Origin: Rhizodiscina lignyota
Taxonomy: Eukaryota
DNA: 64,000 nt
Assembly: GCA_010015805.1 (NCBI GenBank)
Contig: ML978145.1
Location: 124,001 to 188,000 of the forward strand
Direction: 5' to 3'
Shown: in pieces, positions 19,084 through 60,514 of the stretch
How the letters are laid out: each line of letters begins with the position of its first letter
How positions within the stretch are numbered: position 1 is the stretch's first letter
Program-made: the position numbers and the translations under genes
Notes under the pieces: generated by a model
Seen by the model: only the letters and a program-made list of their open reading frames with translations
What the model was told of the DNA's origin: nothing
The model's database searches: none

Positions 19084-21066
19084 ATGACGGACCCGCTCGA
19101 CGCGGCCCCCCCTTTGATTTGCGAGCAGCCACTGCAATTGGACAAAGGAGATGTTATCATCTCACTCTCACATGAGCCTAGAGATAGGCTTCTCCTTCGA
19201 AGCTCGTCATTTCTGCAATTGCCGTGGCTCAGGAGCCGACTTGGAAAAAGGACTAGGACCAAGAACGCCCGATCGACCGTCGACCCGGCAACTGGCAAGC
19301 CATTCAAAGTCTACAAGTATGGATTGGTGTTGGTTGAGAGAACTTGGGGCGATAAGATGGTGCCTGTGTCGGAAGCAGGGGTAATGCAAGAAATCCAGTT
19401 TATTGTTCACGCAACTCACAGGAAAGAAGTATATGGCAGGAAATAAGTACATGGCTAATGGCGGCGAGATGGTACTTGTGTTGAAAGCAGGGGTAATGCA
19501 AGAAACCAGCTTTATCATTCACGCAACTAACAGGAAAGAAGGAGTTCGACTGCACGCTGAGAAATTGGGCCAACGTGCCCTCCAGGGACGATGACTGGTA
19601 CTCAACACATTCCAAATTGGAACACGATAAAGGTGTCTGCGACATGTACGAATCCTCTCTGGCCACTGGGTTCTTCCGGTATAACATAGGTAATCCTGAT
19701 GACTTCGGCAATCGGAACCCAGGTGCCATATTTCGCCGCACTGTCATTGCTTTCAAGATTTTGTTTCGAATTCTTGAAGGACAATCAGTCGAACTTGTCG
19801 GATTGGAGTCCATGCAAGCCTTGCGCTGCCTTGCAAATGCAGTCGCATATGCTGAATATTTCGAGATATTGCCATCTGTTGGAGCGCGATTGCTAGAACT
19901 CTACGAAGGCCTCGCCGAACATTTCCTGAACGATTCTGCTGATGAGGCACCGCTTTTCCATCTCGCAATGGCCCTGAAGCTCCGATCGGAAAACATGTTC
20001 AAAACGGCTGTGCGACGTCTTACAGAGACCCACCACATCTGCGCCGAAGCCAGCGCTGATCACGAATTTCGCAACAAGATCCGGGTCAGATTAGAAGGAA
20101 CAATCGAAGAAAAAAATCGATCGATCATAGGACTTCGTTCCAGAGGGAGCAGCAATCCTTGCCCTAGTCCAAGACAAGCGCAATGGGCTTTTCTCGAGGA
20201 TCAATGGTCTGTTAATCGCCTTGCAGAACTGTGGCCTGCTTTCAAAAGAAGATCCACCCAGTTATAGAAGTGCTGTCATTGCACCTTTCGCACACTTCAG
20301 GCCTGGAGCTGAAGTAGATGAAGCTCTGCGTTTCCTCGCCTCTTCCGTATTCCTGCAGTGGCTCGCCCAAGAAGTCGCCAAAACGGTTCCCTCTGAGGAA
20401 TTACACATTGCGACGACTAACGTGAGCATTGCACACCAGCCGAAATCTTGTCGCGATGACTATATCTCGTTCATCTGGTGAGTGAATTGATCACTTTGTA
20501 TGCTGCACTAAATATGAGGTCAAGACAGGAGAATGCATCGGATTGCAGTTCGTATCCTCAAGGCATGGGAGAAGAAGGACTTGAAAATGCTTAACAGGAG
20601 CATCCCGAGACGTCTCGCAAGGACCCTCCCTGTCTCTCCAGTGACCTTTTTCGCCAGGAACGAAATCCAGCTTCACAATGAACTCATGAGCATCCTTGAG
20701 CGTGCTGCGTCGATCGTCAGATGCCATATCGGAGCCACGAATCAGCCGGTTACACGGGATGCTGTTTTGAGGATCATCTCGAAAGCCACCCCAGCTACTA
20801 AGAGCGGACATGGCGGAGACGATGATGATACCGACTGCGATGACTTGGACAAGGATGACAGTCACAACTCCAAGCGACGTTCGCAATTCTCCAGGTGGAG
20901 TCCCAGACAAAAACTGATCTTCTGGAACGAAATCACACTCTGGCCTTCTAACTTCCCCTGGTATGGTAAAGCGCCCTATGATATGTTTGTCTCGGAGCAC
21001 TGCGAGCCGGTCACTGCGGAGTGGGCGAAGCTGGTGGGTCTTAATGAGTTGCCACCATGCTCATAA
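19084..21066 (+). CDS. Hypothetical multi-exon protein (orphan-like; one junction uncertain)
   Basis: Consecutive protein-like ORFs join in frame through proposed introns 19360-19429, 19472-19541 and 20478-20528. The frame change near 20085-20130 needs either a weak 46-nt intron or a frameshift. Confidence 0.55.
19355..19541 (+). repeat. Imperfect direct repeat, 2 x 75 bp, period 112 bp, coinciding with two predicted introns
   Basis: 19355-19429 vs 19467-19541 align without gaps with 11 mismatches. Confidence 0.9.
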
Positions 21067-24386: not shown

Positions 24387-24481
24387 CGGGTCGCTCCTCT
24401 GCTGCGCTTTGTCACTTTTGAGACGAGTGTGGCTGTCGACTGATGCGTGTATCCAGCTGCCCTCGGCCTTGCGGAAGTGTA

Positions 24482-24916
24482 CAGCGCGTTGCAATCACGG
24501 AGGCACACCCCCACTTTTCCTCTATATCCTCAAGTCGGCCTGTGCATTTTACACTTTTGTGGCGTTTGAAAAACTAACTATATAAGGAGTTAGTAGTATC
24601 TTAGTTTCTCTATGCTAGCTTATACTAGCTAGCGTATTATTCTTAAAGCTAGTTTAAATATTTTAGGGCTACGCACGTCCTCTTTCTAGCGTTAGAGGTA
24701 AATTTATTTTAGCTTAAAAAGGAGTAGAGTTATTATTAACTAGCTAATTAGAGCTACTAGCCCTAACCCTAGTAAGATCCAGCTTTTCTAAGCATAGTAT
24801 AAAATGCACGGGCCGACTTGAGGATATGAAGAGGAAAAGGGGGGGGGTGCCTCCGTGATGGCAACGCGTTGTATTNNNNNNNNNNGGGGGGGTACCTCCG
24901 TGATTGCAACGCGCTG
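24482..24916. mobile_element. Non-autonomous Tc1/mariner-type element (MITE-like) with about 75-bp TIRs and TA flanks; spans a 10-N assembly gap
   Basis: Left end TA|CAGCGCGTTGCAATCACGGAGG (24482). Inverted copies end at 24871 (...GCAACGCGTTG|TA) and 24916 (...GCAACGCGCTG|TA). Interior 24570-24800 is AT-rich and TpA/TAG-rich. Ns at 24876-24885. Confidence 0.85.
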
Positions 24917-24943: not shown

Positions 24944-26556
24944 TTATCTTGCTCGGCTCTCTGGTGGACTCTGAGCCTGCCATTTACTGTGTCTCTCTCT
25001 GAAAGTTGAGAGCTTTTCCTCGTATCCGAGCTGCCTACAAGCCGTAACAGCATGAGAATACAGTCTTGCTTGAGCACTTGGAATCTCGAAATCGGGATGG
25101 TTGCTCTCGAAATCTTCAACTTCCTTCAAGGTGGCCTCGAAGTCCTGGTATTCGTGGTTGAGCGTATTCAGAAGGTCGGATAGACAAAAGGCCTCCAAGT
25201 AGGCCATGCGTGTTACATTTCGCTGGAACTGAAGAGCATCTTGTAGGACCTTTCGAAAGCTGTCACGGGCCGCCTGGTCTTCTTCGGTGTCTTTTACTCT
25301 TGTCAACCAAGACTCTGCGGTATTTCGGGCTGCGAATAATGCTTGGTTAGCTCTCGCGATATCTCGTCTTGCTTGCTCCTGCTGAGCGAGTGCAACCATC
25401 ACATCAATGATATTTTGCTCTGGCATCTGCAGTTCTGGTGATTTCCGAAAGGCCTTCATTGAGAGATCAAATGCGATTCCTGGGGCAAAGCCATCCTCGA
25501 AATTGAGAGGGGTTTGGTAGCCAGCAGTTTCGCGCAGAGACTCGAGTGTAGAAGCGTACTGATGAAATAGGTGTCTCGCGTATCGAGGGTTGCTGATTTC
25601 CAGGAGATCTGCGAGAAGCTTTCTCACTGTCATTGATAGGAACTTCATGGTGGGGTCCTCAGAAGAGTCCAAAGTCTCTGCAACATGAACAGATTCCATG
25701 AATATGTCGTTGGCGTCTGCTCTCGGGCCAGAGTATGTCAACTCCATGTGCGCTGCTGTGGCATACAGACGCCATCGGCCTTGGATTTGAAGAGTCTTGC
25801 GGATGGTGGTGAGCTCGAGTGACTTGATTCTGCCGGAGTTTGTAAAGACGATTCGAGAGTCGTTGCTGATATAGTTTGAAATCTTTTCGAGGTTAACGAC
25901 AGTGTGGTGGTATAGAGTTACAATTCGAAACTGAAGTCCCGTCAACACATTCCCGCATTAACTAGAGTACAAGCGTTTACCTCGACATCAGAGAGATCCT
26001 GGATATTAACATTTTGCATATGACGCCGCACGTCAGCCAATATAGACTCTATCTGCCGCATATGCCCAAATACCCAGAGCTTGGCGTCTGCAAGCATAAA
26101 TCGGAGCAAAATTTGCTCGCTCGCTTTACAACTGGAAGAAAGATGCTCAATTCCATTCTCTAACAATTCCATTCGTTCACGTTGGAGGCCTTGATCAGCG
26201 AGCATATCTGCCCGTTGGAGGGTGAGGAGCAAACTGGTGTGCGTTGGTGGAAGTCGAGAGTTAAAAGTTGCCGCAGCATCGTCGTACCGCCCAAAGGAAT
26301 GACTACAGGCTGCATCTTCTAAGGCTTCGCGATGCGCTTTCTCAAGCAGAGTTTGGAGAAGGGATGGATATGATGTCCAGCTGCCATTTTGTGTTGATTG
26401 CTCTGCCATGCTCGGCACTACGGACGATAGCGTACTTGTTTCGTTGTTATGGATGAGAGGTTGGAGGAAAGCATTCCAAAGAATCGTTCGTCCAAAGTAA
26501 CAGAGCTGTGCGGCAAGACCAAGAAATATGAAGAGAAATAGACCTCTCCACATCAT
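24944..26556 (-). CDS. Hypothetical alpha-helical (TPR-like) protein
   Basis: Two long ORFs joined in frame by GT-AG intron 25931-25980 (..DVE|FRI..). Leu/Ala/Glu-rich helical composition; start codon uncertain (26556 or 26409). Confidence 0.65.
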
Positions 26557-29154
26557 TTCCAATGCTAGCAACGTGATTGAAACATATTTGAGATTTTCAT
26601 GCTAAGGCGATGCGAAGGTGACGAGTTGTAATGATTTCAGGGGTAAAATGGAATGGTCTCAAAGTAGCCTCATTTTACCCTAAGGACTCCCTGAGCCACA
26701 GAGGTACCAAGGTACCCCCGGATATCAGCCGATTTAGGGCAGCTCGTACCCAGATTTTAGCACCACTCCACCCAAGTCCGTTGCTCAAACAATACGATGG
26801 ACACCACTGCCACGACTAAGTTCATATCGCCAAGTAAGGTATAAACAAACTCGCAAGTAGGCGGAGCATCACCTTGACCTAGGGCAGCCCTTCTACTACT
26901 AGGCCTACACAATACGCGGAGGTTGACCTATTTTTGCGACCACTCTTCTTCCACCAAGCTCACTTTGTGTGCGGAGCTTTACATATTTGCCTAGCTCATG
27001 TTCTTCGACTAAGGTCGTACCGTGTATGGAGGTCAACATATCGGCTCAGCTCCCTTTCTTTGGGCGACATGGTGCTATGAGCGAGAATTGAGGGATCTGT
27101 TCAGTTCACCTTCTTCCAAGGATCTCGCACTATGCCGCGGAGACTGGCCTCTCTACTCAGGTTACCTTCTTCAAGCAACTGCATACTATACACACAAATT
27201 CACTTACTACTTTCACCTCCTTCCGCTCGGCAGGCTTGTAGTACCTGTAGAGGTGTTCTTTTAACGATCGGCACATTAGCGCCGGGCAGGCAAACGAAGA
27301 TTGCCAGGTCTCGCTTCTTCCGTTAGACCACGCCTTTGAGATTATCCAGTTTACCCTGTTCCAAAGCGCGGCATCATAGGTGCCCTTCTCGTCTCTTATC
27401 GCGCGGTTCGAAACGGTTTGCAGGTTCGCATAAGTGTTCTTATATTGCGGGACTGAAGATCTGTGGTTTCACAGGTTCATGTGTTGCCGCTAACTTGTTG
27501 CTTGTACGAACATACAGGGAGGGAGGCCCGTGAGAGAGCTGTGCGATGCAGTTCACGAGTCACTGATGATGATCATCATCGTCAATCTCCCCGTCGGTGC
27601 TGGACAGTGATTCGGGATTCGGAGGGAGAGAGAAGGGATATCGTGGAGATCCAGCAACTCCTCTCGGTACCTCATAAATCTTTTTTCTCGAGCTGCATGT
27701 ACAATTCAGTGTCGCCTCCCTGCACAGCCTTTAAACCCTTTGAATTTGATGGTTCTGGAGTCCTTCAGTTTCGCGAGGAGTTCGCTCAAGTTTCGGCGGC
27801 AGCTTACTGTGATTCTGTCTCATCCTCGTTAAGTTCGCCGGACTATTTCGCTTTGGGAAGCAATCTTATTTATGGAGTAGTAGGTACTAGCTATAACGAT
27901 TAACAAACCCTCGGGTTCTCTGTGCGTTCGGCATTTCATTTAGTGTTTTAACCCCTTATGAGTTTGGCTCGAGTACTTCGCACAAAATGAGGTAATACTC
28001 CAGAGTATTTGACCATGTCGAAGATCGCAATTATTTCCGAGCAAGGATACGAGGTTGCAGCCCCGAATGAAAGAGTTTGACAAGGAGGCGAGAAGAGGGG
28101 AGTTGTCTGCGTTTCCTCAATTTCGAAACGCAGAACGAAAAAGACCCTTTGACTCCGCGCACGAGCTCATCTTGACACATTACGTCAGGGATCTTTGAAG
28201 GAGAAACAGTGGTTTGACTTGCCACTGTCTTGGGTCATCAAGGAAGAAGGCGGAGTTGAAGATTAAAGGGGAAAAGTGGATAATTTCGAAACATTCGCAT
28301 TAAAACTCTCTACACGTATCTAACTCGCCTGTACAAACTCCATCAAACCTCGCATGACTATAGTGTCACGAACCCGACATAGTCATCACCGACCTCATAC
28401 GACAAATGACGTGCATTTTCTATTGCCCATGCACATGAAGGGGGTATTCTTCGTAGAAGCCGATCTCGTCCACCGAAGCCCACACACCCAGGGTATCCTT
28501 ATCGTTGAATTTCCTGACCACACCTCACTCCATGAAGATGCAAGACAAAAACAAACATGCAAGGAACATAGGAGAATTGTGAGCAGAGCACAGAACAGGC
28601 TGATAAGCCAGCTAAGCAGACAATGCAAAACGAAGGGGTTTGTGCTGGAAAGTAGGTAGGGGTATCACACCAATCCCGCCGTCGTCACGGACGCGTGTAT
28701 GTCTTGAAGGTGTAAAAAATTGGCAAAGAGCAAAGGTAGAACGGCCACGCGCCTAAGGTTTGCGGAAGAAGTGCAAGTCGTAGACTCGACACCCAGTAAC
28801 AGGGGCTGAAGCAGCAATGTACCGGTAGCATGAGCTCCACGGCATCTGCGCTTGTTGAATGAAGGGGGCAGTGATTACATGAATGTAGCGGGATTTGAAT
28901 ACCGATGCAGCGAGAGCCAAACATGCGCGCGGCTACAAACAAGATTCGTGAAAGGGGAATACATCGTTCATACGTTCAGGACCACCAGTGGAAGGGGAAG
29001 AGAAGGGGTAGAGCGCACTCGACGGGTAATTATTGCGCTAACAAATGATAGTTGTCGAGTCGCAGTATCGATGAAGGCAAGAGATGCGCGTGTCGCACAA
29101 GTCGACGGGGTGTTGTTCTTCGCTGCCACCTCTCGTGCTTCATTTCTACTGAGA

Positions 29155-29574
29155 CTACAGCGCAAGCATGGCGGCGCCGGCGACGATCGCAGCGAGGGCG
29201 GTCGGAAGTGCGTTCAGGGGTGCGGCGCCAGTGAATGGAGAAGGCGCCGCGAGGCCGCCAGTAGCAGAGCCGGTGACGGAAGCGCCACCAGCTGCGTTGG
29301 AGACGGTGCCATTACCACCAGTGGCAAGAGGAGCGACGATGCTGCTGCTGCTGCTGCCAGTACCAGATGGGCTGAAGGTCAAGACGGTGCTGTTTGCCGT
29401 GGTGGAGGAAGGAGGCGTCCCGGTCTTCGTCTGAGTCGTAACCATAAAGACGGTGCGGGTGCTCGTGAAGGTGTTGTAGGAGGTCAGAGAGGAGCTGCTC
29501 GCAAAGACAGCTGGCTCGGCGAATGCGCCGGCCGCTAAGGAGAGAAGGGAGAGTGCAAGCGTGAAGACGCGCAT
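29155..29574 (-). CDS. Small secreted Ser/Thr-rich, probably GPI-anchored cell-wall protein (139 aa)
   Basis: Signal peptide MRVFTLALSLLSLAAGAFA, S/T/G-rich core, C-terminal FTGAA followed by hydrophobic tail LPTALAAIVAGAAMLAL. Confidence 0.85.
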   Translation of the reverse strand: MRVFTLALSLLSLAAGAFAEPAVFASSSSLTSYNTFTSTRTVFMVTTQTKTGTPPSSTTANSTVLTFSPSGTGSSSSSIVAPLATGGNGTVSNAAGGASVTGSATGGLAAPSPFTGAAPLNALPTALAAIVAGAAMLAL

Positions 29575-31145
29575 TGTGGAAGGTGAAGCCGAGGAATGCG
29601 CGTGGCTTTCGTGCGACAGAGGGTGTATGTTTATTTAGATCGTCGAAGACGGAGAATGCAGGTTCTGTTGCGCAATTGAGCGCAGGATATTGTATGGACA
29701 GTGACGGTTGTTCTGGCCCGCGGACGTCGGTAACAGTACTGGAGCGTAGTGTTTGGTTATGTGTTGATGCGCGCAGCGGTGAATGTATGTGGTGGCTCGA
29801 CTATGCGATGCGATGCGATTTGAGAGTGAATGAGTGTCGCGTGGACGTGGTGTGCACTGAGCGAGCGCGATCGTATTCAGATGCCGACGAGGCTGACTGC
29901 GGTCAATGGCGATATGTGCTTGTTGATATGTATGGTGAGGTGCCCTGCACAGAGCGTTGGCGAAGCAGACGGGTTTGAATGAGTGTGGGTGCTACTAGAG
30001 CAAGACTGGATGCGCGCGCGAGAAGAGAGTGAAGATGTAGAAGAGAGGAGGACGGCAAAGGGTGGAGAAGAAAGAAGAGTCGCTCGTGGGACCGGGTAGG
30101 TGTTGGGGAGGGCTTGGGGGTGCTGGGTGAGTTTAATGAGCACCAAGCACCATTACGCTAGCGCCAGGCACCGGCCAATGGCACGCCGCCCCCGCACGAG
30201 CTAGCGTGCGGATCTCCGACGCTGCCTGCGGCTGCCCCTGCCCCGGTCCCTGCGCCAGTGCGAGCGAGAAATTGGCAGCCGCTCACAATCTGAGTGCTCG
30301 CCCACCGTGCAACCCAACCAGCGTGCCCAGAGATGAAGACTCTTCCATCCTCCTTCCAGAGGCACCGTCGCGCGCACCATGAATCGCGGTGGGTCGCCGC
30401 GCTGCAATCTCTGCAATCCTGCTCCAGTCCTCCGGCCGCTGCGCGCTGGAGCCCAAACGACCCGGCGGCGCATGAAACTCAGGTGCCGAAGTGCGCGCTT
30501 GTGGCCACCGCGACCGCTGTGGTGCTGCGTCGCACGCGAGCTATCGTCGGGAGCCACGGCGAGCACGCAGCATGCGAATTGGGTGGAGCGCGCAACGTGG
30601 TACGCCATCAAGCTCTTCGCGACCGACCGCTGCTAAGGAAAAAATCTTCCGAACTTAGCGTGGTGCGCCAATCGTCACAGCCAACAGTCAGCGAGCACGC
30701 TCCCGCGCCCTCACAAGAACAAATCTGTCGCCGTGCCACGTTCCTTTGCCTCCTGGTCCATCTCTTGGCTGTTGGATAATTGCTCCACGTCACATCCGAC
30801 CCAGTAACCCGCCCCAGCCCAACACTTCGCACTGTGCCGTGCAACCCATCCTGCTCGAGAGCGTCCGGTCCATAGAGACCAGAAGAGCCAGCTGCATTGC
30901 GGTGAGCACTCCGTTGCTGTCCGAAGAGTCAATTATGATTTGCCCTCTACCACCTGCGACTTCGGAGACTCTGCCTTTGCGCCGCGTGTCGATGTCGACC
31001 CAAGCCCCCAACAGTCGAGCGGACCCGTGACAAATTCGGCGTAAATTAACTGCAGTCATCAGCCTCGGATTTGTGGACGGCTACACCACTCTCTGACGGC
31101 TGTACCATTGCCGGGTGCTCAAAGTCCAGAGTGCGGAGACAAATC

Positions 31146-31860
31146 ATGTGCTAATCCTATCATAATTGGGGCCTCATGGAAAGGACTGCGAATGACCCTG
31201 GAGCTTCGATTCCATTATTGTCAGAATCTCATCTTCCTGAGGGCGAGCATGCCTGAGTATTGATTCTATTATTGTTGGAAACTCCATCTCGTAAGTGTGA
31301 GCAGACCTTGGGCACCGATACTATTGTCGTTGGAAGCTGGTCGTCCTGGAGGGGAGTGGCTGCTGAACTTTAATGCTATTATGGTTGCACTCTCAACTCC
31401 ACGATGGCCGGCATGTCCTGAGCATCCATTTTGTTAGTATTGCAAAGTCATGTCCTAGAGGCGGGCGGCGTTGACTGTCGATTCTGGTTTCCTTGCAGGC
31501 TCATCTTCATAGATGTGAAGATGCCCTGAGGATTGATTATCTTCTTATCACAAGCTCAATTTCTTAGAGGCACGCAGGCGTGGAGCATCGATTCTATTGT
31601 CGCTGCACGTTGGCCGTTTAGAAGACGAGCAGGTGCTGAACATTGATTGTGTTGTGGTTACAAGCTTGACGCTTCAAAGGGAAGCATATCTTGAGCATTG
31701 ATTCTATTATCGTTACAAGTTCATTGTGCTGAAGGGTTGCAGACTTTGAGCATCGATTCTGTTATCATTTCAAGTTCGACTTTCTCAAGGCGGACGAGCT
31801 TTGATCATTGATCATATTATCGTTGCAAGCCCTTCTTCCCACATGCCAGCAGACCTCGAG
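31146..31860. repeat. Degenerate tandem array of 55-bp units, block A (12 clear units plus one eroded)
   Basis: Unit starts at 31201, 31255, 31310, 31365, 31420, 31473, 31528, 31583, 31638, 31693, 31748, 31803, eroded unit near 31146. Approximate consensus GAGCATYGATTCTATTATCGTTGCAAGCTCATCTTCCTAGAGGGCGAGCAGACCTT. No ORF of 60 aa or more in 31060-32274. Confidence 0.9.
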
Positions 31861-32205
31861 TGATGTCTCCACCTCGACCACGGCGGATGTCGTGAGATGA
31901 GACGGCGCAGAGAAGTCCTGCGATGACGCCCATTCTGCGAAGGATTCTAATGTATGAGGAAATAGAGGGCCAGTGAAGTCAAGATTGGCCGTGTTTGGGA
32001 CGATGGGCCAATTCGGATTGATCTATTGTAACGTTCTGTCCAAACGTTTCACCTTGTTCTGAATATTTTCCTGGACAGTCTATCCTTTCACGTTCCCAAT
32101 TCGAAGACCCCATGCAAAGATGAGAAGGACCGGACTGATCCACTGTGCCACAAACCTGTCATGACTACGGGAAAGAGCTTGTAGCTTGATTGCACTTAGG
32201 TGTTG

Positions 32206-32590
32206 AACCGTCGACTCAATTATTCGCGGAAGTTTATCATCTTAATGGTGAGTAGTTCCCAAGCATCGACGTAGCTACCGGCAAACGTCTCTAACCTGGT
32301 TAGATTTAATGATTTCACACTCGATTCTATTACTGTCGGAAGCCCGATCTTGTAAAGGCGCGTGGATTTTGAGCACGCCATAACTTCCGTTAAGCACCTG
32401 TAAGCTGGTTGCGTTTGGAGCCTTAAGTATCCATTCTACTATTACTGGAATCTTCATTTATTAAATGTGAGTAGACCTTAAACTTTTCAGTCACTCTATC
32501 TAACACTTACAATTTGATTGTGTTTAGACACTTGACCCTCGATTCTATCATATGGGAACGCTCAGCGAGAGGATCACGTACAAGCCGCAA
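32206..32590. repeat. Degenerate 55-bp array, block B (about 7 more eroded units of the same family)
   Basis: Unit starts about 32206, 32261, 32316, 32371, 32425, 32480, 32534. The 32425 unit (AAGTATCCATTCTACTATTACTGGAATCTTCATTTATTAAATGTGAGTAGACCTT) closely resembles the 31255 unit. Confidence 0.75.
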
Positions 32591-33073
32591 GAAATATCCT
32601 GACCAGAACGTACATCCCGAAGAGTACAATTCTGACCTACTCAACACGCCTGTTTGAAAAAAACGGGCCCGGGCAACTACAGCCAGTAACAGAGCCGGGA
32701 TTCCAATGCAGTATACCGCATGCGAACAGGCCCGTGACACTTATTCAAGCCAGAAACAGCAGTTAACCTAACCTCCACGCTGACTTCCTTCTTCATTCGC
32801 TCAGCTGCCCGCTTGGCTATTCTGCTCCTTCCTCGCATGCTCAGGTTCACCTTCTGCCTTCGCAGCTCCTCCGTGCCTCAGTAGGGATTTGTCACAATAC
32901 GTTAACCGAAAGTGGTTTAGAAAACTTCATTCATATTACTGCCTTTTTATAAGGCACCTCTGTCCTAATTCATGCCTCAAAACACAGCATTTGACCTCGA
33001 AAACAGCACTTGACCCCCAACTTGACCGCCTTCCTCGTTCACTCCGATAGCGGCTCAATCATCTGCCCCTTCC

Positions 33074-34510
33074 TCACCTCTTCCTCTTGCGGAGATTGAA
33101 CTCGCCCTTCTGCAACTCCTCTATCAACTTCATGTCTTCCTCGGTAGGCTCCACATTCGGCGGCGATCCTGCGACACCTGCCACAAACGTACCAGGACGA
33201 CTACCAGCAGCAGTAGAGGCATCGTTCGACGCGCGGTCGGATGGGGAGGGCGATGCAATCGTCCGTGCCGCGTCTTCAGCCTGTGAGAATCTTGTAAGTG
33301 TAGCGGTTGTTCTCTTGCGTTTTCTTCGGGAGCGTCTTGCCGCAGCTTCGCGTCTCGCGTGGTCCCTGGCGTTGCTAAGAGCCGCGGGATACTCTCCGTC
33401 ATACATCTTCCAGAACCTGGTAACAGCATCCTTTCCTCCGAGCAAGTCCCAGTTGCCCTTCATCGCCTCCTTCTTGATCAGCTTGCAGCCGGCCTTCACG
33501 TGGCTCACAATGTCCTCCACCAGACTCTCGTTCGTCGCGTCGGGGTGGTTGAGCTGGTTGATGATGACACGCATCCACTTCTCGACACCGCTCCACTCGA
33601 GATAGTGACCGCCGATCATCATTGTCTGCGCGTCGTCTGCGGATCGGCGAAAGACGAAGTGGGTAGTACCACTTGGGAAGCGGACCCACTCTCCTGGACG
33701 GAGGACGATGTAGCGCCACTGCGGGTTGTTCTTGGGACCCTTCCAGAACCTGTCCTTGGACCAGGCTTCGACGTGATTCTCATCCTGACTCGCCAGCCAA
33801 CCGAAGCCAACCTCGCCTTGAAGGACCTTGAGCCAAGTCGAGTAGCCGTGGCTATCTTGATGGGGAAGCGTGATTGCTCCAGCTTCGGCGATGAGCACCC
33901 ACTCCTGCAATCCGGGGAACTTGAGAATTTGCGAGGCAGAGGCTCTCATGCGAGCACCGTGGCTGCCCATGATTGCGAAATCACCGAGGTACTTGAGGAA
34001 AGAATACTTGAACTCGTCGAACATGGTCGGCCTGAATGATCTCATGTGCGGCTTTCCGACTTCAAGCAGATTCCAGGGCTCCTCATGCGCAGATGCGTCA
34101 GCGAAACGCGCTCTGATCGTTCCCACGTCCATCTCGACCGCCGATGGCTCGTCCAACGTGCACGACGCATCGCTCACCGAGAGCTTGGCCTCGTCGTCGC
34201 GCATCCACTCGAAGAATTCCTGAATTGGCGTCTTCTCATCACCCGTTTCATAATCGAAGTGCGGATAGACTTCCGGAATACCGCTGAAGTTGCTCGTGGG
34301 GGTATCATCCTCGCAGTCGCCAACATGGACGTCGACACCGAGGGTCGCAGGCATAGAGTAATGTTGGAGCAGATCGGCCATCTCTTCCGCATTCTGAAAG
34401 CCTCGAGTTCCGACTTTGTTCGCGCTGTTTGCGATGAATTGCTGCAGATGATTGATAACGTCTTGCACAAAGGCCTCATCGGCGCTGACGGCCGTCTTCA
34501 CGGTCGCCAT
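33074..34510 (-). CDS. JmjC/cupin-type Fe(II)/2-oxoglutarate dioxygenase with basic NLS-like segments
   Basis: 478-aa ORF. AITLPHQDSHGYSTWLKVLQG (HxD), IVLRPGEWVRFPSGTTHFV (distal His), MIGGHYL; basic patches RRSRRKRKR and terminal LRKRKR. Confidence 0.82.
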   Translation of the reverse strand: MATVKTAVSADEAFVQDVINHLQQFIANSANKVGTRGFQNAEEMADLLQHYSMPATLGVDVHVGDCEDDTPTSNFSGIPEVYPHFDYETGDEKTPIQEFFEWMRDDEAKLSVSDASCTLDEPSAVEMDVGTIRARFADASAHEEPWNLLEVGKPHMRSFRPTMFDEFKYSFLKYLGDFAIMGSHGARMRASASQILKFPGLQEWVLIAEAGAITLPHQDSHGYSTWLKVLQGEVGFGWLASQDENHVEAWSKDRFWKGPKNNPQWRYIVLRPGEWVRFPSGTTHFVFRRSADDAQTMMIGGHYLEWSGVEKWMRVIINQLNHPDATNESLVEDIVSHVKAGCKLIKKEAMKGNWDLLGGKDAVTRFWKMYDGEYPAALSNARDHARREAAARRSRRKRKRTTATLTRFSQAEDAARTIASPSPSDRASNDASTAAGSRPGTFVAGVAGSPPNVEPTEEDMKLIEELQKGEFNLRKRKR

Positions 34511-35549
34511 GTTTGAATTGTCGTAAGCGAGTGAAACGGTGCAGTCGCAACTGGCTGAATGTGGAAAAGAGGTTGAGCGTGGAATAGGATCTGTGCCTCA
34601 AGACGAGACAGTGATTGGCCTTGAAGTGGACCCGAGAATATCAGCAAGAAGAAGCCCGAGATTGTTTCGAGCGTACCTGCCACACGCGTTGTTATTGATT
34701 TTGTGGTTGTGAGCAGCTGTTGTCTTTGTGAGAAGAGCGTGCCTCTTTGTTTAGCCTGGCCTCGCCGAATTGGGAAGGCTCGATTGAATGCGACCACCCT
34801 TTGAAAGATGGCCGAAGAGTGCTTTGATTGTCCGCGTATATAACGGAGGAAGAAAGAAGGGAAGAGTGAGGGGCTCAGTAGAGAGTGAAAAGGTGGAAGC
34901 TTTGACAAGCTGCGCCGTTTGTTGCCGCGCTGGCTAAATTTTGAGGGTGGTGCGCGCTTCACTGTTGAGCGCGTTTGCTGTGGAAACGAGGCCGGGCTTC
35001 GGAGACCTGAAGCGCCTATTAGCGCGGTCTTATACACTGTTTACCTAACGCTAAACCGGTGCCTGCGTTCACGTCTCGATGAAGACTTGACTTCCACTTC
35101 ACTTGAGCAAGGCTCTTCCGGATTCGGATGGCGCTTTCCCATTTTGGGAATGGTACATGTGACCACCCTCCTGCCTGACGACGCCTCGGGAAGGATGTTT
35201 CTGAGATATTCACCTGAGGCAGGCAGCTTGCTTAATTCATTGCAGTTAGCTGCTTATGTGGTACACTATATACCATATCTTTTTGTGACATAACAAAATG
35301 ATGTAGATCGTTCCAATGGACAGCTACGACTGCTCTCACGACGCCCAATCGAAAATCACAGTCCGCTTGCGGTTCCAATAGGTGGAGAGACACATTTTGA
35401 ACTCGCATAACCTCAATTAAATGGAATTTACACCGGATAGCTCGAATTTCTTGCTCTCAATTCGCCAACCAGGCTAATCGACCCTTCTCACAACACGCAA
35501 GATATACATCCCACAAACCTTCCAGTGTCGCAAAGACCCAATCCTCGCA

Positions 35550-44523: not shown

Positions 44524-46473
44524 CGTGGGTCGATAACTCGATATTGGTATGGAGGGGGGAATGAGTGGCCCGTGGGATGGCTAGGAGCTGAGTAAAGAGA
44601 AAGGTTTGTGTGCTGTGATGAAAATTTTTTGTGTACTGTGATGAAAAGGGTGGGTGTGCTGTGCTGAAAAAAGTTTGTTGTTGTGATATAGATGTAGTGG
44701 TAAATTATCACCGCAGCAACGACCAACGGGCCATTTGCTCGAGGGCGTTTTTGGAGCGAGCATTGCACTCCAATGATGAGAATTAGGATTATTACTTGAG
44801 GCTAGAGAGCTCGGGAAGCTCTGGCAGCTCTTATATTGGATGAAGGCCAATAAATTCGAGATCCTACTTGGTGGGAAGCAAATGGCGAGCTTCTGCAGTA
44901 TTTTCATTCCTCTGTCTTCGCGCCCTTAACAACACAAGATGTATAGTAGAGACATATGGCGCTAAAAGAGACGGTATAAAGATTTATAGAACATGGAGCG
45001 TTCCCTCCTATTCTCGTACGCATGATGAAAGTGATAGAGACTGTGCATCGTCTGGGTCGCTCGATTACGTTGAGCGGCATCCGTCTCCACATGCAGTCTC
45101 CACGTCTACCATCAAGCCATGCCCTTGAAGATACCCGATTGAAAATTGACATTGTGGAGCAACATGCAGCCGTTCATATCAATTCGTATGCAGATGTTGA
45201 CACCTGCAAGAGCTCGTCACGAATGTCGTCATGATATGTGATGAAAGTCGACGTGTTCTCCTACGAGATCGATACAGACGCAAAATGATGACGAATCTTG
45301 GACTATACAAGTTGGAGAGAATGCCCTACCTGGGTGGGGGGAGATGTTTCCACGCTTCCCCTTCCTCTGGCCACACCGTATGCAGTCTAGCAAGTCCAAG
45401 ATTTGCTCCCAAAGGATTCTCCTTAATTCGTTCGCACTCAGGCTCCGCACCGCATGCTGCAGCTTCCAATGTTTACTATTCATCGAGATATTCATTTTGG
45501 CGCTCGTAGACACACTCTCAGGTTGTTGAATCTCCGCGGGGATGGCGATCCCTATTGGTCACGTGACAATTGCTTGGCTTTTCATGTTTCCCTAGGGGTC
45601 GGCCGATTTCCACGTTATCGCCGGCTTTGTCGCGCGGTTACATCATTCCACGCCGCTGACGAGACCAATGCGAGTGCGTTTTCCTAAATCTCTTTAGTTG
45701 AGTGAACAAAATATATTCGCTGCTTTAGATCCTTTTGAATCCATATCTTTTTCGACTTCCATTGGAGATCTGACGTCGCGTCAGATAGCTAGACGTGTCG
45801 CAGGATCTGGCTTTTCACCATACGTCACGCCCACGCGACTCGCCTCGCGGAACCGCAGATAGTATCGCGTCGAAAAGTGCAGGTCAAGCTGCAAGGCCGA
45901 ACTCGTATCGCGTTTGTGGGTGAAAATCTGGTGCTGTGGGCTGAACCAACGTCGGCAGAGTGGCAAGCCGCAAGCCGCAATTGGAGGTGAGAACGAGGTT
46001 TCGAGCAGCGTCTGGGAGAAATTCAGCATTTAAAAAAGACTACGCAACGTTGAATCCTAATCTTCTCCAATGATTGGTTTTTCCTTGGTCCGCAAACAGA
46101 AATCTCTCCACGGAAATAGCAGCGCTCGACGTTGAAACAAAAGTGACCGGCATCGTTCGCCTGCCGCTACCGGGCTGCGGACCCTGGGAGTCGAACGAAT
46201 CGATCAGCCCAAAACAGCCTAACGAGGCCATTGGAAGTGCGGCTGCGAGGAAAGCATAAGCAATACACGCGTGACAAATGTGCCAAGACCTCCAGAGCAG
46301 GACAGGATCTTTGTCAGCGTATCAGCACTTAGATTGGCTGCGCTGCGAGCACAAGCATCTGTATCGACCATTCAGCAATTGAACAACTATAAAGGAAAGT
46401 CATGTCTCCGGCCACATGCTCCAACGTCTGCTGGACAATTAACGAGACTTGTGAAGAGCTGGAAGGACTCAAG

Positions 46474-50622: not shown

Positions 50623-52658
50623 TTATAGGTTCAGTACCGGAATATTCTTCTCCAGATATCCGTACCACTTCGGCAGTGTCCTCTTATACGGCGTTCCTGA
50701 ACTCAACTGCAAGTCTTCAATCGCAGAACCCCACTTAACAAGCTCTGGCTCGCCCCACGCAGATTGCATGAGCGCAAGCCCAAACGGCATTCCGGTCATG
50801 CTGTGGACACCTGCCGGCAGCGTGATCATTGGATATCCCGCTTGAGCTGCAATCTGATACGTCTGACCGATGTCGGGCGGTACAAGCTGTTTAAATTGTT
50901 AGTCTGGTCTTGGATACGAACTGTCATTGGTAATTGCAAGACTTGCCAGAGCGTCCAGCTTCGAGCCGTTCGGTCCCATTGCGAGCGCCGCATCAATACC
51001 ATCTTCTCTTGTCGTTCTCTGGCAGAAAGCTAATGCCTGAAAATAAGCCTCATCCATTATCCCTTTGCTCTCCAAGCTCGCCAGGAAGCCATCTTGTCCT
51101 GAGTAGAAAGCAGGTATACCCAAAGGCCAAGGATGTCCGCCTTCGGATCCGTCGTTTGCATAGTTGTAAGTGACAAGATCCTCAACGTTCTTTATCTCCG
51201 TGTTCTCGAGCTCCGACAAATAGTCGCGGATATTGTTGTAGAAGTCGACTTTCACCACAGTATATTCTGACTCGTTTGGAAAGCCCCGGGTGGTGCCGTA
51301 GTCCCAGTTCCAGCCGTCTGGACTGACAATGGTCTTGTATGTAGGAAGTTCAGTGTTGTTCACAATAGTTGCTCCGGCCGATCTGATTAGTTCCACTAGC
51401 TCAAGCAGTTTATTTTGCTGCTCCGTGTCTGCAAGGGCCCAGAAGCTCGCCCATGGAATTCCAAAAGTCGCATTGGCAAGTGCAGACCTATCAGTCAAAA
51501 ACTGCATGTAGCCTTCACGAGGAGTTTTGCCAATTTGTGCCGAGGTGTAGTTGTCCCGCCCGTCTGGACCATATATGGCATCCAAGACGTAGACTGCATC
51601 GCGAACTGTCTTTCCGAATGGCCCCGGAGAATCCTGATGTGCGCTCTCGGGTATTACTCCAGCGCGCGATGTCAATCCCACGGTTGGCTTGATGCCAACT
51701 ATCGCATTCCGTTCCGCGGGATTGATGATACTGCCGTCGGTTTCCGTGCCCAAAGCGAACATAAATACATTCGCAGCTACACCCGCAGCACTGCCAGAGC
51801 TGCTGCCGCCAGGATTGAGGGTGAGGTTGTAAGGGCTGCGAGCTTGTCCACCACGGGCACTGTACCCTTCGCTGTAATTGTTGGATCGCATGTCGGCCCA
51901 CTCGCTCAGAGTGGCCTTGCCAAGTAGCAATGCGCCCGCAGCGCGAAGTTTGGAGACAATCATAGCATCTCGTGGGACAATTGAACCAAGCAATGCGACT
52001 GAACCAGCTGTAGTCTGCATGCGGTCTTTCGTCGCAATGTTATCTTTTACCATAAACGGAACTGTATAGATGAGCTTTGATCGGGCTTGCTTCCTCGGGA
52101 TACAACTCACTTCCATGAAGTGGGCCTCGAACCTTTCCTGTTTCTCGCTCTGCGTCTAGTGATGCTGCAATTTGGAGGAAATCTGGATTGACCTCTAGGA
52201 CAGAGCTGCTGGTCGTGAGTTGATTTCGTACGATCAACGAGATTGAAACTACACACTTGATATACTCATCGGTCTGCCAGATTCTTTCCATGTAGCACAG
52301 TGCAATTTGAGTAGACGTTAGTACCCCTCTTCCCATGTAGTCTTGGAGCTGATCTATAGTCGCTTCTTCCAGTGTAATACCGTTGCAGAGAGGCATTGGA
52401 AATAGGGCGTCCGTGTTGGCAACATTCTGATCCGGAAAGGCGTATGGCAGCGGAGTCTCCAGAGTCTGAGATCCCACTCCCTACTAAAGTAAGTAGATAT
52501 CACTCTTCTGTAAATGCCAATGCGTCGCATACAATAGTCGGAATTGCAATGTGAACATCAGGGCCAGCGACTTTGACAAAAGAGTCATTCCCTTGAAGCA
52601 ATTGAGAGATAACGACGAGCGGATGGAGACACAAAGTAAGAAAGGTTGATTTCGCCAT
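50623..52658 (-). CDS. Amidase-signature family enzyme, probably secreted
   Basis: Introns 52481-52532, 52206-52256, 52062-52110, 50887-50946 (GC-AG). GPLHGIPFMVKDN, PGGSSSGS, GTETDGSI, GIKPTVG. Confidence 0.92.
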
Positions 52659-53516
52659 AATCGGAACAGTTGAAGAGCGGTAGCGGCTCAACCATTAACT
52701 TCCAGAGCTCAAGGCGGCTTTGACGAAGTCGAAATACCAACTAAAACGTCGCACCATCCCAAAACTCAAAGTCAGAGCCATTGGTGAGAGGCAGTGATTG
52801 CTGAATCCCAATTCAATGGTCTTTATACATGTGAGCTACTTAGCCTGATGTCCTGCAAGATCTGGCATCCCGCCCTGGCATCCTGCATCCTGATAACGAT
52901 GCAAGATGACAAAGTAGGTTATGTTTAGTTTCCGATAGGAGGTCGAAAGCATGATGTCGCACACCGCCTCTCGCTCGAAGGGTTTGGTTCTCGTTCAACC
53001 TGTCACAAAGGCGCCATAAGGACTTCTCAATGGAGAGATGGTCCAAGAAGTCACCATTGGAAGTAAAGGTAGAGAGGACGATCGCTCAAGGGGTCTTGAG
53101 AGCCTGGAGGCTCAGCTGGAAATCTGAAGGAAAAGCAATTTCAGGGTCCATGCACGTTTTCGACATTCCGCGACGAACTGATGCCTCCATGCCTTGTTAC
53201 AACCGCCAAAAATTGTGCGCGAGAGCATGTATACAATGAGACAATGCAATTGGGCAATCTCTTAACCCTGCTGAACAGCCACAGGTCGATTCCAATGGCA
53301 CGCCAGCTCATTCAGCTCCTCCGGGATGCTTCCCGGCTATACCCCACCCCCCCTTGCTTACAACCGCCCTGAAGTTCTCCGTATAGGCGAGAGAAAAGCT
53401 ACTGCCCCTACCAAGTTTGCTGTGCAATTACTCTCCAGAGACGAGAAAATTGTACAACATACAGGCATCGAACCAATTGACCGCCTATCCGGCTCAATTC
53501 ACCCAGACTCCTCGCC

Positions 53517-54271
53517 ATGCCTCTCATCAGGCGCTTCCTCCAGCTCACCACGGTGGGCGCGGCGACAGGTACAGCTGGCTGGATGTGGTACACACGAAAC
53601 ATCCATTTCGTACCATTCGATGCGACTTCGCCGGATTTCACTTCTCCCATATCCAAACGTCTCAACCCGAGCCTGAACAAGCCATCTTGTATCGATGACG
53701 CGACCCGCAGCGTGCCACTGTCGAAACTCAAGACGACAGACATTGCAGAACTTACACGGGACTACTGCAGGGGAGTGTGGGGTGGGCTAGGCTTTGAAAT
53801 ACAGAGACGCGAATTGGAGAGACGGCATAGACATAAAGAGGGCAAAGAGTCTCAGTTGTGGGACGTGAAAGACCTAAAGGAGAGCGAGTATCCAGTCGGA
53901 ACGCGAATTGCAGACCATTTTGAGGTGGTGGAGCACACTCCGGACAAGGTACGAGACTTCTCTCAATAGTGGGACAAGGATTGAGCATTGAAGGGTCGCT
54001 GGCATTCCTCACACTGCCGAACTAATTTATGTGACAGGTCGTTATTCGGTGTGGTGATTCTCCCGACGTTCCAGAGCATAGAGCGTCAGACGGCATATTC
54101 AGTCTCGAGGTTGCGATAGAAGGAGATGTCGCGACATTCCACATGAAGAGCATTTTCTTCAACAGCCTTCCAAATGCTTCGTACAACCAACTGCCGTGGC
54201 ATATCAAGTGGGCTCACATGGAATATGACAAGCTCCTCCTTGAGACGGCCGTTCGATCTCTCCTGCGATAG
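53517..54271 (+). CDS. Hypothetical protein (two exons)
   Basis: Exon 1 53517-53948, intron 53949-54037, exon 2 open to TAG at 54271 (VVIRCGDSP..DGIFSLEV..FHMKSIFFN..HMEYDKLLLE). Confidence 0.75.
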
Positions 54272-55154
54272 TTCGGCAACAGAAAACACAAACCAGTCGC
54301 TCTTCCCTTGTCCAATTTGGAATGGGTCTCGCATGATATTCGATGCTCATCCGCATTTGATATCCAGATTATATCCAGATTAGTGTTCATCGCTTAGGTT
54401 AAGGTGATGCTCTCGTCGACAGATTCATTATGGGAGGGTTCAGTTCAGACTACTCCGTATAGTAGATTTATCCGTTTGGTGAGACGCTACTGTTGTTCCA
54501 ACATAAGGTCGCGTTCAACGATAAGTGGCCAAAGATGCAGCGCGCCTCGAGCTGAACGGCACAACTCTGGCATGAGAAAACGGACGTTTCGTCTTCAAAT
54601 GAGTTTAGAATCGAATAGACTCTGGATACATAGCAGTAACTAATTCAATCAACTGTACAGGGTTCTCGCTTCCCAATGGAGTCATTGCAGTCCACGGATC
54701 TTTGGCTTGTATCTTGTCGGGACTAAGAGACCGCTAGAGAATTAACAGACTCGGGAGCGTTCTGTGCTGTTGCGTCTGTGGCTGAAGCCAATTTGCATTT
54801 GCAGTCCTTAAAAGAAGCTCAATAGGCGGATTTTGAGCACGTGTGGGGTGGGCCTTGGTCCAGCTCAGCAAAGATCTTCACTTTTACGCCCAACTGGCCA
54901 TCAGCTTCCCCGCGCCTTAGCCTTTGCAATGCAACCTCAACCCCACGGGGATAGCAGCGCAACACGGATTCAAGCTACCTTTTCAGGGCAAGACAAGAGG
55001 AAATATTCCGCAATGTTCTGGGCGTCAGGTTCTCTGCATTTCCCTCTCACATTACGATTTATTCTCACCATATCTCTCTTCGTTCACTTCGACCATGCTG
55101 TAGTTGTCTCACGTGAATTTCACAACTCAAGAGATTGGTCCAAGTCTCTGCATC

Positions 55155-60215: not shown

Positions 60216-60493
60216 TGCATTTCCGGTACCTCGGATTGAGCGCCGATAGTAGTAATCTCGTCACGAAATAGAGAGTATGGCGGTACTTTGACGCGGAATG
60301 TAGCAGTATCGTGACAGTAGAGCATCGGAAAGCTTGAGGGACCAAGCTTCTCACAGCAGGAGAGGAACAGATATGCATGACAAAGCGAGAAACTCCTGAC
60401 TATAAAGAGACTTTTAGATTGACGTAGGAGAATCCGTACTCAACGTCTAACCACCTGCCCCAAGGACCCAAATCCAAGGTCGCTCGCGGCGGC

Positions 60494-60514
60494 TGACTAA
60501 GATTCGGTTAGTCA
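60494..60514. promoter_or_regulatory. Inverted pair of AP-1/Yap-like sites TGACTAA-N7-TTAGTCA flanked by CGGCGG
   Basis: CGGCGGC TGACTAA GATTCGG TTAGTCA TCGGCGG, about 280 bp upstream of the Zn2Cys6 gene ATG. Function is inferred from the motif only. Confidence 0.35.

What the first reader, a model, noticed from the sequence alone, without database searches (positions are those of the whole stretch)
31146..32590. Non-coding array of about 19-20 length-locked 55-bp units with a conserved half and a variable, hairpin-capable half
Seen: two blocks of related units. In block A, 9 of 11 intervals between clear units are exactly 55 bp (others 54 and 53) although the units differ by many substitutions. 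About 30 nt (GAGCATYGATTCTATTATCGTTGCAAGCT) are better conserved than the following 25 nt, giving a repeat/spacer-like look. The variable halves often still fold on the + strand with different sequences: GTTCG-a-CTTT-ctc-AAGG-CGGAC (31748 unit), GCTTC-aaagg-GAAGC (31638), CATCT-tcat-AGATG (31473), CGTTT-aga-AGACG (31583); the 31803 unit does not. 55 is not a multiple of 3 and no long ORF covers block A. Inference: conserved length and pairing despite heavy divergence suggest constraint, for example a precursor cut into unit-length small RNAs or a phased protein-binding array. An old neutral minisatellite is the null explanation.
Basis: partly seen in the sequence, partly recalled or inferred. 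Interest (0 to 1): 0.85.

Follow-up and report, generated by a model that had tools for sequence, protein, structure and literature searches.

The report
Fossil 55-bp tandem array in fungus
This is a real but old and heavily decayed non-coding tandem repeat with 55-base units in a fungal chromosome; it shows no sign of folding into RNA hairpins and most likely is a relic satellite-type repeat, with a possible constraint on its spacing still untested.

Summary
The array is real. Block A has 12 contiguous units (31201-31857) with start-to-start intervals of 54, 55x3, 53, 55x6. Block B (32206-32590) has 3 clear units in a 109/110-bp two-unit repeat. Units are about 58% identical. The first ~28 nt are modestly better kept than the rest (66% vs 50% pairwise identity). 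No frame is open and no coding signal is present.

The RNA reading fails. Folding energies equal those of shuffles on both strands, RNAalifold finds no consensus pair, and Rfam gives no hit. The substitutions are not RIP-like (108 transitions, 72 transversions).

New facts:
- Two other contigs of the probable source genome carry unit-specific copies (82-88% identical), so the already diverged array was duplicated as a block.
- A ~95% identical relative has the same copy number, and none of its 12 listed deletions falls inside the arrays.
- A second cryptic array of unrelated sequence, also with a 55-bp period, lies 4 kb away (26820-27260) in the same gene-poor 6.5-kb island.

Only three 1-bp indels are seen. 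That is too few against the local indel rate, but not against a low rate.

Verdict: a frozen relic minisatellite or short satellite family. A spacing-constrained DNA array remains possible.

The parts
31146..31200 (+). Decayed leading unit ('unit 0') in register with block A
   Evidence: Read in 55-nt rows it shares scattered consensus letters. It is not detected by the unit PWM or HMM.
31201..31857 (+). Block A: 12 contiguous units of 55 bp (one of 54, one of 53). The better-kept core is unit positions 1-28 and the more variable part is 29-55.
   Evidence: PWM scan, MAFFT alignment, nhmmer E 1e-11 to 4e-7, lag-55 identity 0.50. No RIP signature: TpA/ApT 0.49.
31858..32205 (.). 348-bp stretch between the blocks with no recognisable units. 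It is not a whole number of units (6.3 x 55).
   Evidence: No nhmmer or PWM hit. Three of the 12 listed X2 deletions fall here.
32206..32590 (+). Block B: about 3.5 copies of a 109/110-bp two-unit repeat. Clear units start at 32206, 32316 and 32425, with a partial one at 32534. The alternate units are strongly decayed and the composition is RIP-like.
   Evidence: Lag 109 identity 0.42 and lag 219 0.41, against 0.33 at lag 55. nhmmer E 1e-9 to 1e-7. TpA/ApT 1.07, (CpA+TpG)/(ApC+GpT) 0.88, GC 42%.
26820..27260 (+). Second cryptic array, about 6-7 units, with the same 55-bp period but no detectable sequence similarity to array 1. It may be related only by period or by origin.
   Evidence: An unbiased lag scan finds lag 55 here and at array 1 only. 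Unit starts are 26875, 26930, 26985, 27040, 27095 and 27151. Pairwise identity is 47%. Profile-profile comparison with array 1 gives p = 0.49 ungapped and 0.28 gapped.

Best explanation
This is a fossil, frozen, non-coding minisatellite, that is, a short satellite array.

Inferred history:
1. A 55-bp unit was amplified head to tail long ago, in DNA that was later copied as a block to at least two other places in the genome.
2. The units diverged by ordinary point mutation to about 58% identity. At that level they are too unlike for slippage or unequal exchange, so the copy number and the period were left in place.
3. Part of the array (block B) was re-amplified as a 110-bp two-unit repeat and later took RIP-like damage.

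The period survives because decay has been dominated by substitutions in a sequence poor in slippage-prone runs. The better-kept 28-nt core is the kind of uneven variability along the unit that is known from satellite DNAs. It may reflect weak constraint or uneven mutability.

Shown: the anatomy, the non-coding status, the lack of RNA structure, the copies elsewhere in the genome, and the same copy number in a relative. Inferred: the order of events and neutrality.
For: - Periodicity and unit map.
- Non-coding: 21-29 stops in every frame. No codon-usage signal anywhere in 26.5-33.07 kb apart from a weak one over the small ORF at 29.15-29.6 kb.
- Ordinary mutation spectrum: Ts 108 / Tv 72 and a near star-like unit tree.
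- No homogenisation: neighbouring units are no more alike than distant ones (identity 0.57 at distance 1, 0.58 at distance 7).
- Block B has a higher-order 110-bp repeat, typical of satellite dynamics.
- No RNA structure.
- Copies elsewhere in the genome: in run X1 (probably the window's own source) two other contigs match 31219-31295 (14 mismatches, 1 gap) and 31335-31464 (15 mismatches, 0 gaps). Their loose ends continue unit-like in register. Unit 31365 differs from the array consensus at 19 of 55 positions (my count), so an 88% match is unit-specific. The diverged array was therefore duplicated as a block.
- Same copy number in the ~95% identical relative X2: no joints. The 24 unlisted indel rows hold only 63 letters, so none can be a whole unit (my arithmetic).
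- Setting: a 6.5-kb gene-poor island that also holds a second decayed 55-bp array.
- Uneven variability along satellite units is documented (PMC9673304, passages read).
Against: - Only three 1-bp indels accompany 150-224 substitution events. With the local ratio of 0.13 indels per substitution, P(<=3) is 5e-6 to 1e-9, and at 0.065 it is 0.012 to 3e-4.
- None of the 12 listed X2 deletions in 30016-33073 lies in the arrays, which make up 36% of that interval. P is about 0.005 by my calculation. Insertion rows were not shown.
- The conserved core is contiguous (p = 0.028).
- A second, unrelated array with exactly the same period 4 kb away is unlikely by chance (my estimate, about 1-3%).
- A 1.4-kb neutral array surviving about 10-14 times the window-X2 divergence (my arithmetic) in a compact fungal genome is unusual.
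Confidence: 0.55

Rival explanations
1. Spacing-constrained DNA array. The 28-bp core would be a binding site for a DNA-binding or chromatin protein, repeated every 55 bp (three units are about 165 bp, roughly one nucleosome repeat; this figure is recalled). Selection against small indels would keep the sites in phase while the linkers drift. It could act as a distant upstream element of the minus-strand Ser/Thr-rich secreted-type gene at 29155-29634, or as a chromatin boundary.
For: - Deficit of indels against the local calibration.
- No listed X2 deletion in either block, while the 348-bp gap and the 483-bp right flank take 10.
- A contiguous better-kept core.
- Array architecture, including the 53-bp unit, shared with an old paralogue (loose end in register).
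- A second array with the same period.
- Conserved boxes in satellite units are the accepted sign of protein binding only for the CENP-B box (PMC9673304 passages).
Against: - The core is only 66% identical between units, and only 3 columns are invariant in 15 units.
- The two window-specific changes that can be polarised (31258 and 31372, where X2 and a paralogue agree against the window) both hit consensus positions of the core.
- Much core variation sits at CpG sites (columns 7-8 and 19-20), as expected from plain mutation.
- 55 bp is not a whole number of 10.5-bp helical turns.
- No binding protein or motif match was found.
- The deficit vanishes at an indel:substitution ratio of 0.03.
Confidence: 0.2
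2. Relic of a mobile or otherwise dispersed element. The arrays would be internal or subterminal repeats of an old, now unrecognisable transposon that filled the 26.5-33 kb island and left fragments elsewhere.
For: - Unit-specific copies on two other contigs at single-copy depth.
- All 12 classified differences to those copies are transitions, and block B has RIP-like composition, as expected for duplicated DNA in a RIP-competent fungus.
- A gene-poor 6.5-kb island in an otherwise gene-dense window.
Against: - No terminal inverted or long direct repeats around the island or the arrays.
- No transposase, reverse transcriptase or helicase domain in 42 ORFs scanned, that is, the longer ORFs across the window and most of those near the arrays.
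- Only two short pieces reach 80% likeness genome-wide in X1.
- Block A itself shows no RIP signature.
Confidence: 0.13
3. Non-coding RNA made of repeated modules. This could be a precursor cut into about 55-nt small RNAs, or a long RNA with repeated protein-binding cores (the Xist A-repeat layout is recalled as an analogy).
For: - A conserved core plus a variable linker at a fixed period.
- The array sits more than 500 bp from either flanking gene, in DNA with no coding signal.
- Transcription could not be tested.
Against: - No folding excess on either strand: units have mean z -0.17 to +0.84 across registers, and the whole array has z 0.01 and 0.30.
- No consensus pairs and no covariation.
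- No Rfam family at E <= 1.
- 11 of 12 variable parts have no match within 5 of 22 nt elsewhere in the window; the twelfth has a single 5-mismatch match that I take as chance.
- Both halves of the unit are homologous between units, unlike guide or spacer sequences.
Confidence: 0.07

Closest known systems
Satellite DNA or minisatellites with conserved and variable segments in the unit (for example Arabidopsis 180-bp and Meloidogyne satellites, alpha satellite with the CENP-B box). Source: passages of PMC9673304; the examples come from its reference list.
   Same: - Head-to-tail non-coding units of fixed period.
- Uneven variability along the unit.
- A higher-order (two-unit) repeat in one block.
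- More than one array of the family in the genome.
   Different: - Very low copy number: about 20 units here, plus two other small loci.
- Units are only 58% alike, with no sign of concerted evolution.
- No copy-number change against a 5%-diverged relative.
- It lies in a gene-rich chromosome arm of a filamentous fungus.
- No link to a centromere is shown.
Hypervariable minisatellites / VNTR loci
   Same: Unit size in the 10-100 bp range, an intergenic position and tandem organisation.
   Different: VNTRs have near-identical units and change copy number quickly. Here the copy number is the same in X2 and the unit order is shared with an old paralogue.
CRISPR arrays
   Same: A fixed period with a better-kept part and a more variable part.
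   Different: - The host is a eukaryote: fungal Zn2Cys6 and Fungal_trans genes are in the window.
- The 'repeats' are only 66% identical.
- The 'spacers' are homologous to one another (50% identity).
- The period is fixed to the base, rather than a fixed repeat with spacers of loosely similar length.
Period-locked arrays of unrelated sequence reported earlier in this scan for some Bacteroidota (21-bp rule; AI notes e1-1120620 and others, unchecked)
   Same: Two arrays share a period but not a sequence.
   Different: Only two arrays have been seen here, in a fungus. The period is 55 bp, not a multiple of the helical repeat, and the arrays are old and static rather than fast-changing.

Membership tests
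Satellite DNA / minisatellite (non-coding tandem repeat) | Head-to-tail units of constant period | tested here: met
   12 contiguous units, with 9 of 11 intervals equal to 55 bp. Lag-55 identity is 0.50.
Satellite DNA / minisatellite (non-coding tandem repeat) | Non-coding | tested here: met
   21-29 stops per frame, negative codon-usage scores in all six frames, and a unit length that is not a multiple of 3.
Satellite DNA / minisatellite (non-coding tandem repeat) | Family present at more than one locus, or higher-order repeats | tested here: met
   Two further contigs in X1 carry unit-specific pieces. Block B has a 109/110-bp two-unit repeat.
Hypervariable minisatellite (VNTR) | Copy number differs between close relatives; units nearly identical | tested here: not met
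   There is no joint and no unit-sized indel against X2 at about 5% divergence. Units are 58% identical.
Structured RNA array / hairpin small-RNA precursor | Folding more stable than shuffled sequence | tested here: not met
   Mean z for the variable halves is -0.02 (+) and +0.06 (-). The whole block gives z 0.01 and 0.30.
Structured RNA array / hairpin small-RNA precursor | Conserved pairing with compensatory changes | tested here: not met
   RNAalifold predicts 0 pairs. The tested stem forms pairs in 41.9% of cells, against 47.3% in shuffles.
Structured RNA array / hairpin small-RNA precursor | Transcription and phased products | not testable with these tools
   No RNA run is listed as a holder.
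RIP-mutated repeat | Transition-dominated divergence, a high TpA/ApT ratio and a low (CpA+TpG)/(ApC+GpT) ratio | tested here: not met
   Block A: Ts 108 / Tv 72, with indices 0.49 and 1.76. Block B alone looks RIP-like (1.07 and 0.88).
CRISPR array | Near-identical repeats separated by unrelated spacers, in a prokaryote | tested here: not met
   Core identity is 66% and 'spacer' identity 50%. The gene context is fungal.
Protein-coding tandem repeat (for example LRR) | Open frame, with a period that is a multiple of 3 or a 165-bp super-period | tested here: not met
   There are stops in all frames. Identity at a distance of 3 units (0.584) is no higher than at 1 or 2 units (0.572, 0.591).
Transposon with terminal or subterminal repeat arrays | Terminal inverted or long terminal repeats, a transposition gene, and many copies | tested here: not met
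   No convincing TIR or LTR. No transposon domain in 42 scanned ORFs. Only 2 other short pieces in X1. Old, eroded elements would escape these tests.
Phased protein-binding array (conserved box in a satellite unit) | Conserved box at a fixed spacing | tested here: inconclusive
   There is a contiguous better-kept 28-nt part (p = 0.028) and a fixed spacing. However, only 3 of 55 columns are invariant.
Phased protein-binding array (conserved box in a satellite unit) | A protein that binds the box | not testable with these tools
   No binding data are available.

The most novel reading that the evidence does not exclude
The 55-bp period itself is what is kept. On this reading the fungal lineage has a process or a chromatin constraint that creates or preserves non-coding arrays with a 55-bp register (one third of a roughly 165-bp nucleosome repeat; that figure is recalled). 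That would explain three things: two arrays of unrelated sequence 4 kb apart share the period exactly, array 1 has almost no small indels despite about 0.3 substitutions per site, and its architecture has outlived an old duplication.
Probability: 0.12. Interest if true: 0.7.

Novelty: new member of a known kind. Interest (0 to 1): 0.3.

Why it matters
- Such strongly diverged arrays are invisible to standard repeat finders. TRF reported neither array. They can easily be mistaken for designed repeat/spacer systems, so a clear negative on RNA structure is useful.
- The residual oddities are cheap to test on the whole genome and in relatives. They are too few small indels against the local rate, no listed deletions in a 5%-diverged relative, and a second unrelated array with the same period.
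- If those oddities held up, this would be a rare case of a spacing-constrained non-coding array in a filamentous fungus. If they do not, it is an ordinary relic repeat.

Tried and rejected
- Whole-genome search: no genome is held for this window. Genome-wide counts of arrays and periods were therefore impossible.
- RNA evidence: no RNA holder is listed, so this says nothing on expression.
- Read laying: the tables were cut. 40 of 290 difference rows and 12 of 36 indel rows were shown, and all 12 were 'left out' rows. The substitution density inside the arrays and any insertions in X2 remain unknown. X2 has no laid cover left of 29775, and array 2 was not in the laid stretch.
- Metagenome scan with a 19-letter degenerate core: all 25 loci are single matches with no neighbouring units, at about the number I estimated for chance. 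No related array was found. This scan could only see exact matches to one core variant (3 of the 15 units here match it).
- Rfam at E <= 1 and tRNA search: nothing.
- Earlier notes of this scan: nothing on this genome or sequence.
- Literature: four searches found no description of 55-bp arrays in fungi. This holds only for those terms and that library.
- Rejected readings:
  - RIP as the source of unit divergence (40% transversions).
  - A coding repeat, including a 165-bp super-period.
  - CRISPR-like spacers.
  - Introner-like or splice-site units. GTRAGT-like sites occur in only 3 of 15 units (my reading).
  - C/D-box-like units. No TGATGA is present, and CTGA occurs at 5 of 12 unit junctions (my reading).
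  - An assembler artefact with k = 55. The units are diverged, and two independent Logan assemblies cover the array.
  - Homology between array 1 and array 2.

Full report
**Observation**

The region was read directly. Self-identity in 31146-31860 peaks at lag 55 (0.50), then at 110 (0.45) and 165 (0.41). In 32150-32590 it peaks at lag 109 (0.42) and 219 (0.41), with only 0.33 at lag 55.

A position weight matrix built from nine clear units recovers 12 contiguous + strand units. They start at 31201, 31255, 31310, 31365, 31420, 31473, 31528, 31583, 31638, 31693, 31748 and 31803. Three further units start at 32206, 32316 and 32425. There is one noise hit elsewhere on the + strand (8.4 bits) and none on the minus strand.

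nhmmer, run with a model built from these same 15 units (so those E-values are circular), scores them at E <= 4e-7, and gives nothing better than E = 3.4 anywhere else in the 64 kb. Tandem Repeats Finder does not report the array.

**Anatomy**

- The 12 block-A units align with three 1-bp gaps. They carry 180 differences from the consensus (108 transitions, 72 transversions). Mean pairwise identity is 58%, with a range of 47-70%.
- Neighbouring units are no more alike than distant ones, and the unit tree is nearly star-like. The array has therefore not been homogenised for a long time.
- Columns 1-28 carry 72 mismatches and columns 29-55 carry 108. Pairwise identity is 66% against 50%, with 26% expected at random. 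The contiguity of the better-kept part has a permutation p of 0.028. This is a gradient of conservation, not a repeat/spacer layout.
- Only 3 columns are invariant across the 15 units.
- Block B is about 3.5 copies of a 110-bp two-unit repeat in which every second unit is almost unrecognisable.
- The 348 bp between the blocks hold no units.

**Not coding**

Each of the six frames over 31146-32590 has 21-29 stops. A codon-usage score trained on 11 ORFs of the window is negative in all frames across the array. It is strongly positive over the neighbouring 507-aa ORF. There is no 165-bp super-period.

**Not RIP**

In block A 40% of the differences are transversions. TpA/ApT is 0.49 and (CpA+TpG)/(ApC+GpT) is 1.76, which is the opposite of a RIP signature. 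Block B, at 1.07 and 0.88 with 42% GC, does look RIP-like.

**Not a structured RNA**

- Whole units, variable halves and conserved halves were folded on both strands, and whole units also in 11 registers. Mean z-scores lie between -0.17 and +0.84.
- Two of the 12 variable halves are individually low (z = -2.7 and -1.5), and the rest scatter around zero.
- The whole 712-nt block has z = 0.01 on the + strand and 0.30 on the - strand.
- RNAalifold on the 15 units predicts no pair.
- A stem I placed in the variable half (columns 29-33 with 40-44) pairs in 41.9% of cells, against 47.3% in shuffles.
- Rfam at E <= 1 gives nothing, and ARAGORN gives nothing.
- The variable parts have no near matches elsewhere in the window.

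**Context**

The window is fungal and gene-dense. It holds Zn2Cys6 and Fungal_trans, P450, MFS, Vps27-like, UCH, amidase and other genes. The 507-aa neighbour has only two database relatives. One of them is from the Dothideomycete Elasticomyces elasticus, at 36% identity.

From about 26.5 to 33.07 kb there is almost no coding signal. The only exception is a small Ser/Thr-rich ORF with a signal-peptide-like start at 29155-29634 on the minus strand. No transposon domain was found in 42 ORFs scanned. There are no convincing terminal repeats.

**Relatives and paralogues**

Run X1 holds the stretch without a single difference. It is probably the window's own source, so it is not independent support. 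In X1 two other contigs at single-copy depth match 31219-31295 (14 mismatches, 1 gap) and 31335-31464 (15 mismatches, no gap).

Unit 31365 differs from the array consensus at 19 of 55 positions. An 88% match across it is therefore unit-specific, which means the already diverged array was copied as a block. The loose ends continue unit-like in the same register, including across the 53-bp unit (my reading of the 30-letter loose ends). All 12 classified differences to these copies are transitions.

Run X2 is an air metagenome. It carries a contig covering 30016-35500 with 272 mismatches (about 5%) and 36 indel rows.
- There are no joints. The 24 unlisted indel rows hold only 63 letters, so no whole unit has been gained or lost.
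- The 12 listed rows are all deletions. None falls in 31146-31857 or 32206-32590. Three fall in the 348-bp gap and seven in the 483-bp right flank.
- The arrays make up 36% of 30016-33073, so 0 of 12 has P of about 0.005 (my calculation).
- Insertion rows and the substitutions inside the array were not displayed, so this test is half blind.
- Runs of 4 or more identical bases are about as frequent in the arrays (4-5 per kb) as in the gap (5.7 per kb), but rarer than in the right flank (14.5 per kb).

**Is the length lock more than neutral decay?**

The units have accumulated 150 (parsimony) to 224 (star tree, Jukes-Cantor) substitution events. The probability of seeing three or fewer indels depends on the assumed indel:substitution ratio:

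| Ratio | Basis | P(<=3 indels) |
|---|---|---|
| 0.13 | local value, from X2 | 5e-6 to 1e-9 |
| 0.065 | half the local value | 0.012 to 3e-4 |
| 0.03 | low end, recalled from mutation-accumulation work | 0.34 to 0.10 |

The deficit is therefore suggestive but not decisive. The finding was also picked out for this very property.

Two changes can be polarised, because X2 and a paralogue agree against the window at both sites (31258 and 31372). Both hit consensus positions of the core, which does not look like strong purifying selection.

**A second array**

An unbiased scan of the whole window over lags 7-250 flags three places at more than 3.5 sd. These are a coding low-complexity stretch at about 6.7-7.4 kb (lags in multiples of 3), array 1, and a new site at 26.7-27.3 kb, also at lag 55.

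The new array has about 6-7 units, starting at 26875, 26930, 26985, 27040, 27095 and 27151. Its pairwise identity is 47%, and its differences from the consensus are 61 transitions and 51 transversions. Its profile shows no similarity to array 1 in any rotation or orientation, with p = 0.49 ungapped and 0.28 gapped.

Two unrelated arrays with exactly the same period lie 4 kb apart in one gene-poor island. By my estimate this is a 1-3% coincidence. Alternatives are descent from one old satellite family whose arrays drifted apart (the 'library' idea named in the abstracts listed), or a shared constraint on the period.

**Search for relatives elsewhere**

A metagenome scan with a 19-letter degenerate core gave 25 loci. 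Each has a single match and no neighbouring unit, so these are chance hits. No genome is held for this window and no RNA run is listed. Earlier notes of this scan hold nothing on this sequence.

Four literature searches found no description of such fungal arrays. Passages of PMC9673304 state that uneven variability along satellite units is known in several species. They add that it is read as possible constraint, and that a function has been assigned only to the CENP-B box.

**Verdict**

The array is real, non-coding, old and static. It belongs to a low-copy family with copies elsewhere in the genome.

The most likely explanation (0.55) is a fossil minisatellite or short satellite, frozen once its units became too unlike to recombine. 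A spacing-constrained DNA array (0.2) is kept alive by the indel deficit, the contiguous core and the second 55-bp array. The remaining readings are a transposon relic (0.13) and a modular RNA (0.07). The whole-genome period census and the full paralogue and orthologue alignments would settle the matter.

Noticed in passing
window 26820-27260: Second cryptic tandem array of about 6-7 units, with the same 55-bp period as the finding but no detectable sequence similarity to it. Pairwise identity is 47%. TRF does not report it.
   Followed up: yes
window 26500-33070: A 6.5-kb island with almost no coding signal in an otherwise gene-dense window. It holds both 55-bp arrays, a 61.5%-GC block (30000-31140) and one small Ser/Thr-rich ORF with a signal-peptide-like N-terminus and a hydrophobic C-terminus (29155-29634, minus strand).
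   Followed up: partly
window 30294-30549: Seven of the eight differences to the relative X2 in this stretch fall on positions of one codon phase (coordinate divisible by 3). This hints at a short conserved coding or phase-constrained segment inside the GC-rich block. No ORF there looks protein-like and none has a Pfam hit.
   Followed up: partly
window 33077-34597 (minus strand): A 507-aa ORF with a strong coding signal, no Pfam family and only two database relatives (52% and 36% identity). The latter is a hypothetical protein of Elasticomyces elasticus. It appears to be a lineage-restricted gene.
   Followed up: partly
window 24876-24885 and 24460-24800: A run of 10 N (an assembly gap) lies next to a stretch with extremely negative coding scores in all frames.
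   Followed up: no
window 19345-19547: A two-copy direct duplication of about 100 bp at a spacing of 112 bp.
   Followed up: partly
window 44603-44687: A 23-bp tandem repeat of 3.7 copies. It has the highest TRF score in the window (93).
   Followed up: no
window 50900-63000: A cluster of amidase, MFS transporter, Zn2Cys6 transcription factor and cytochrome P450 ORFs. It may be a small metabolic gene cluster.
   Followed up: no
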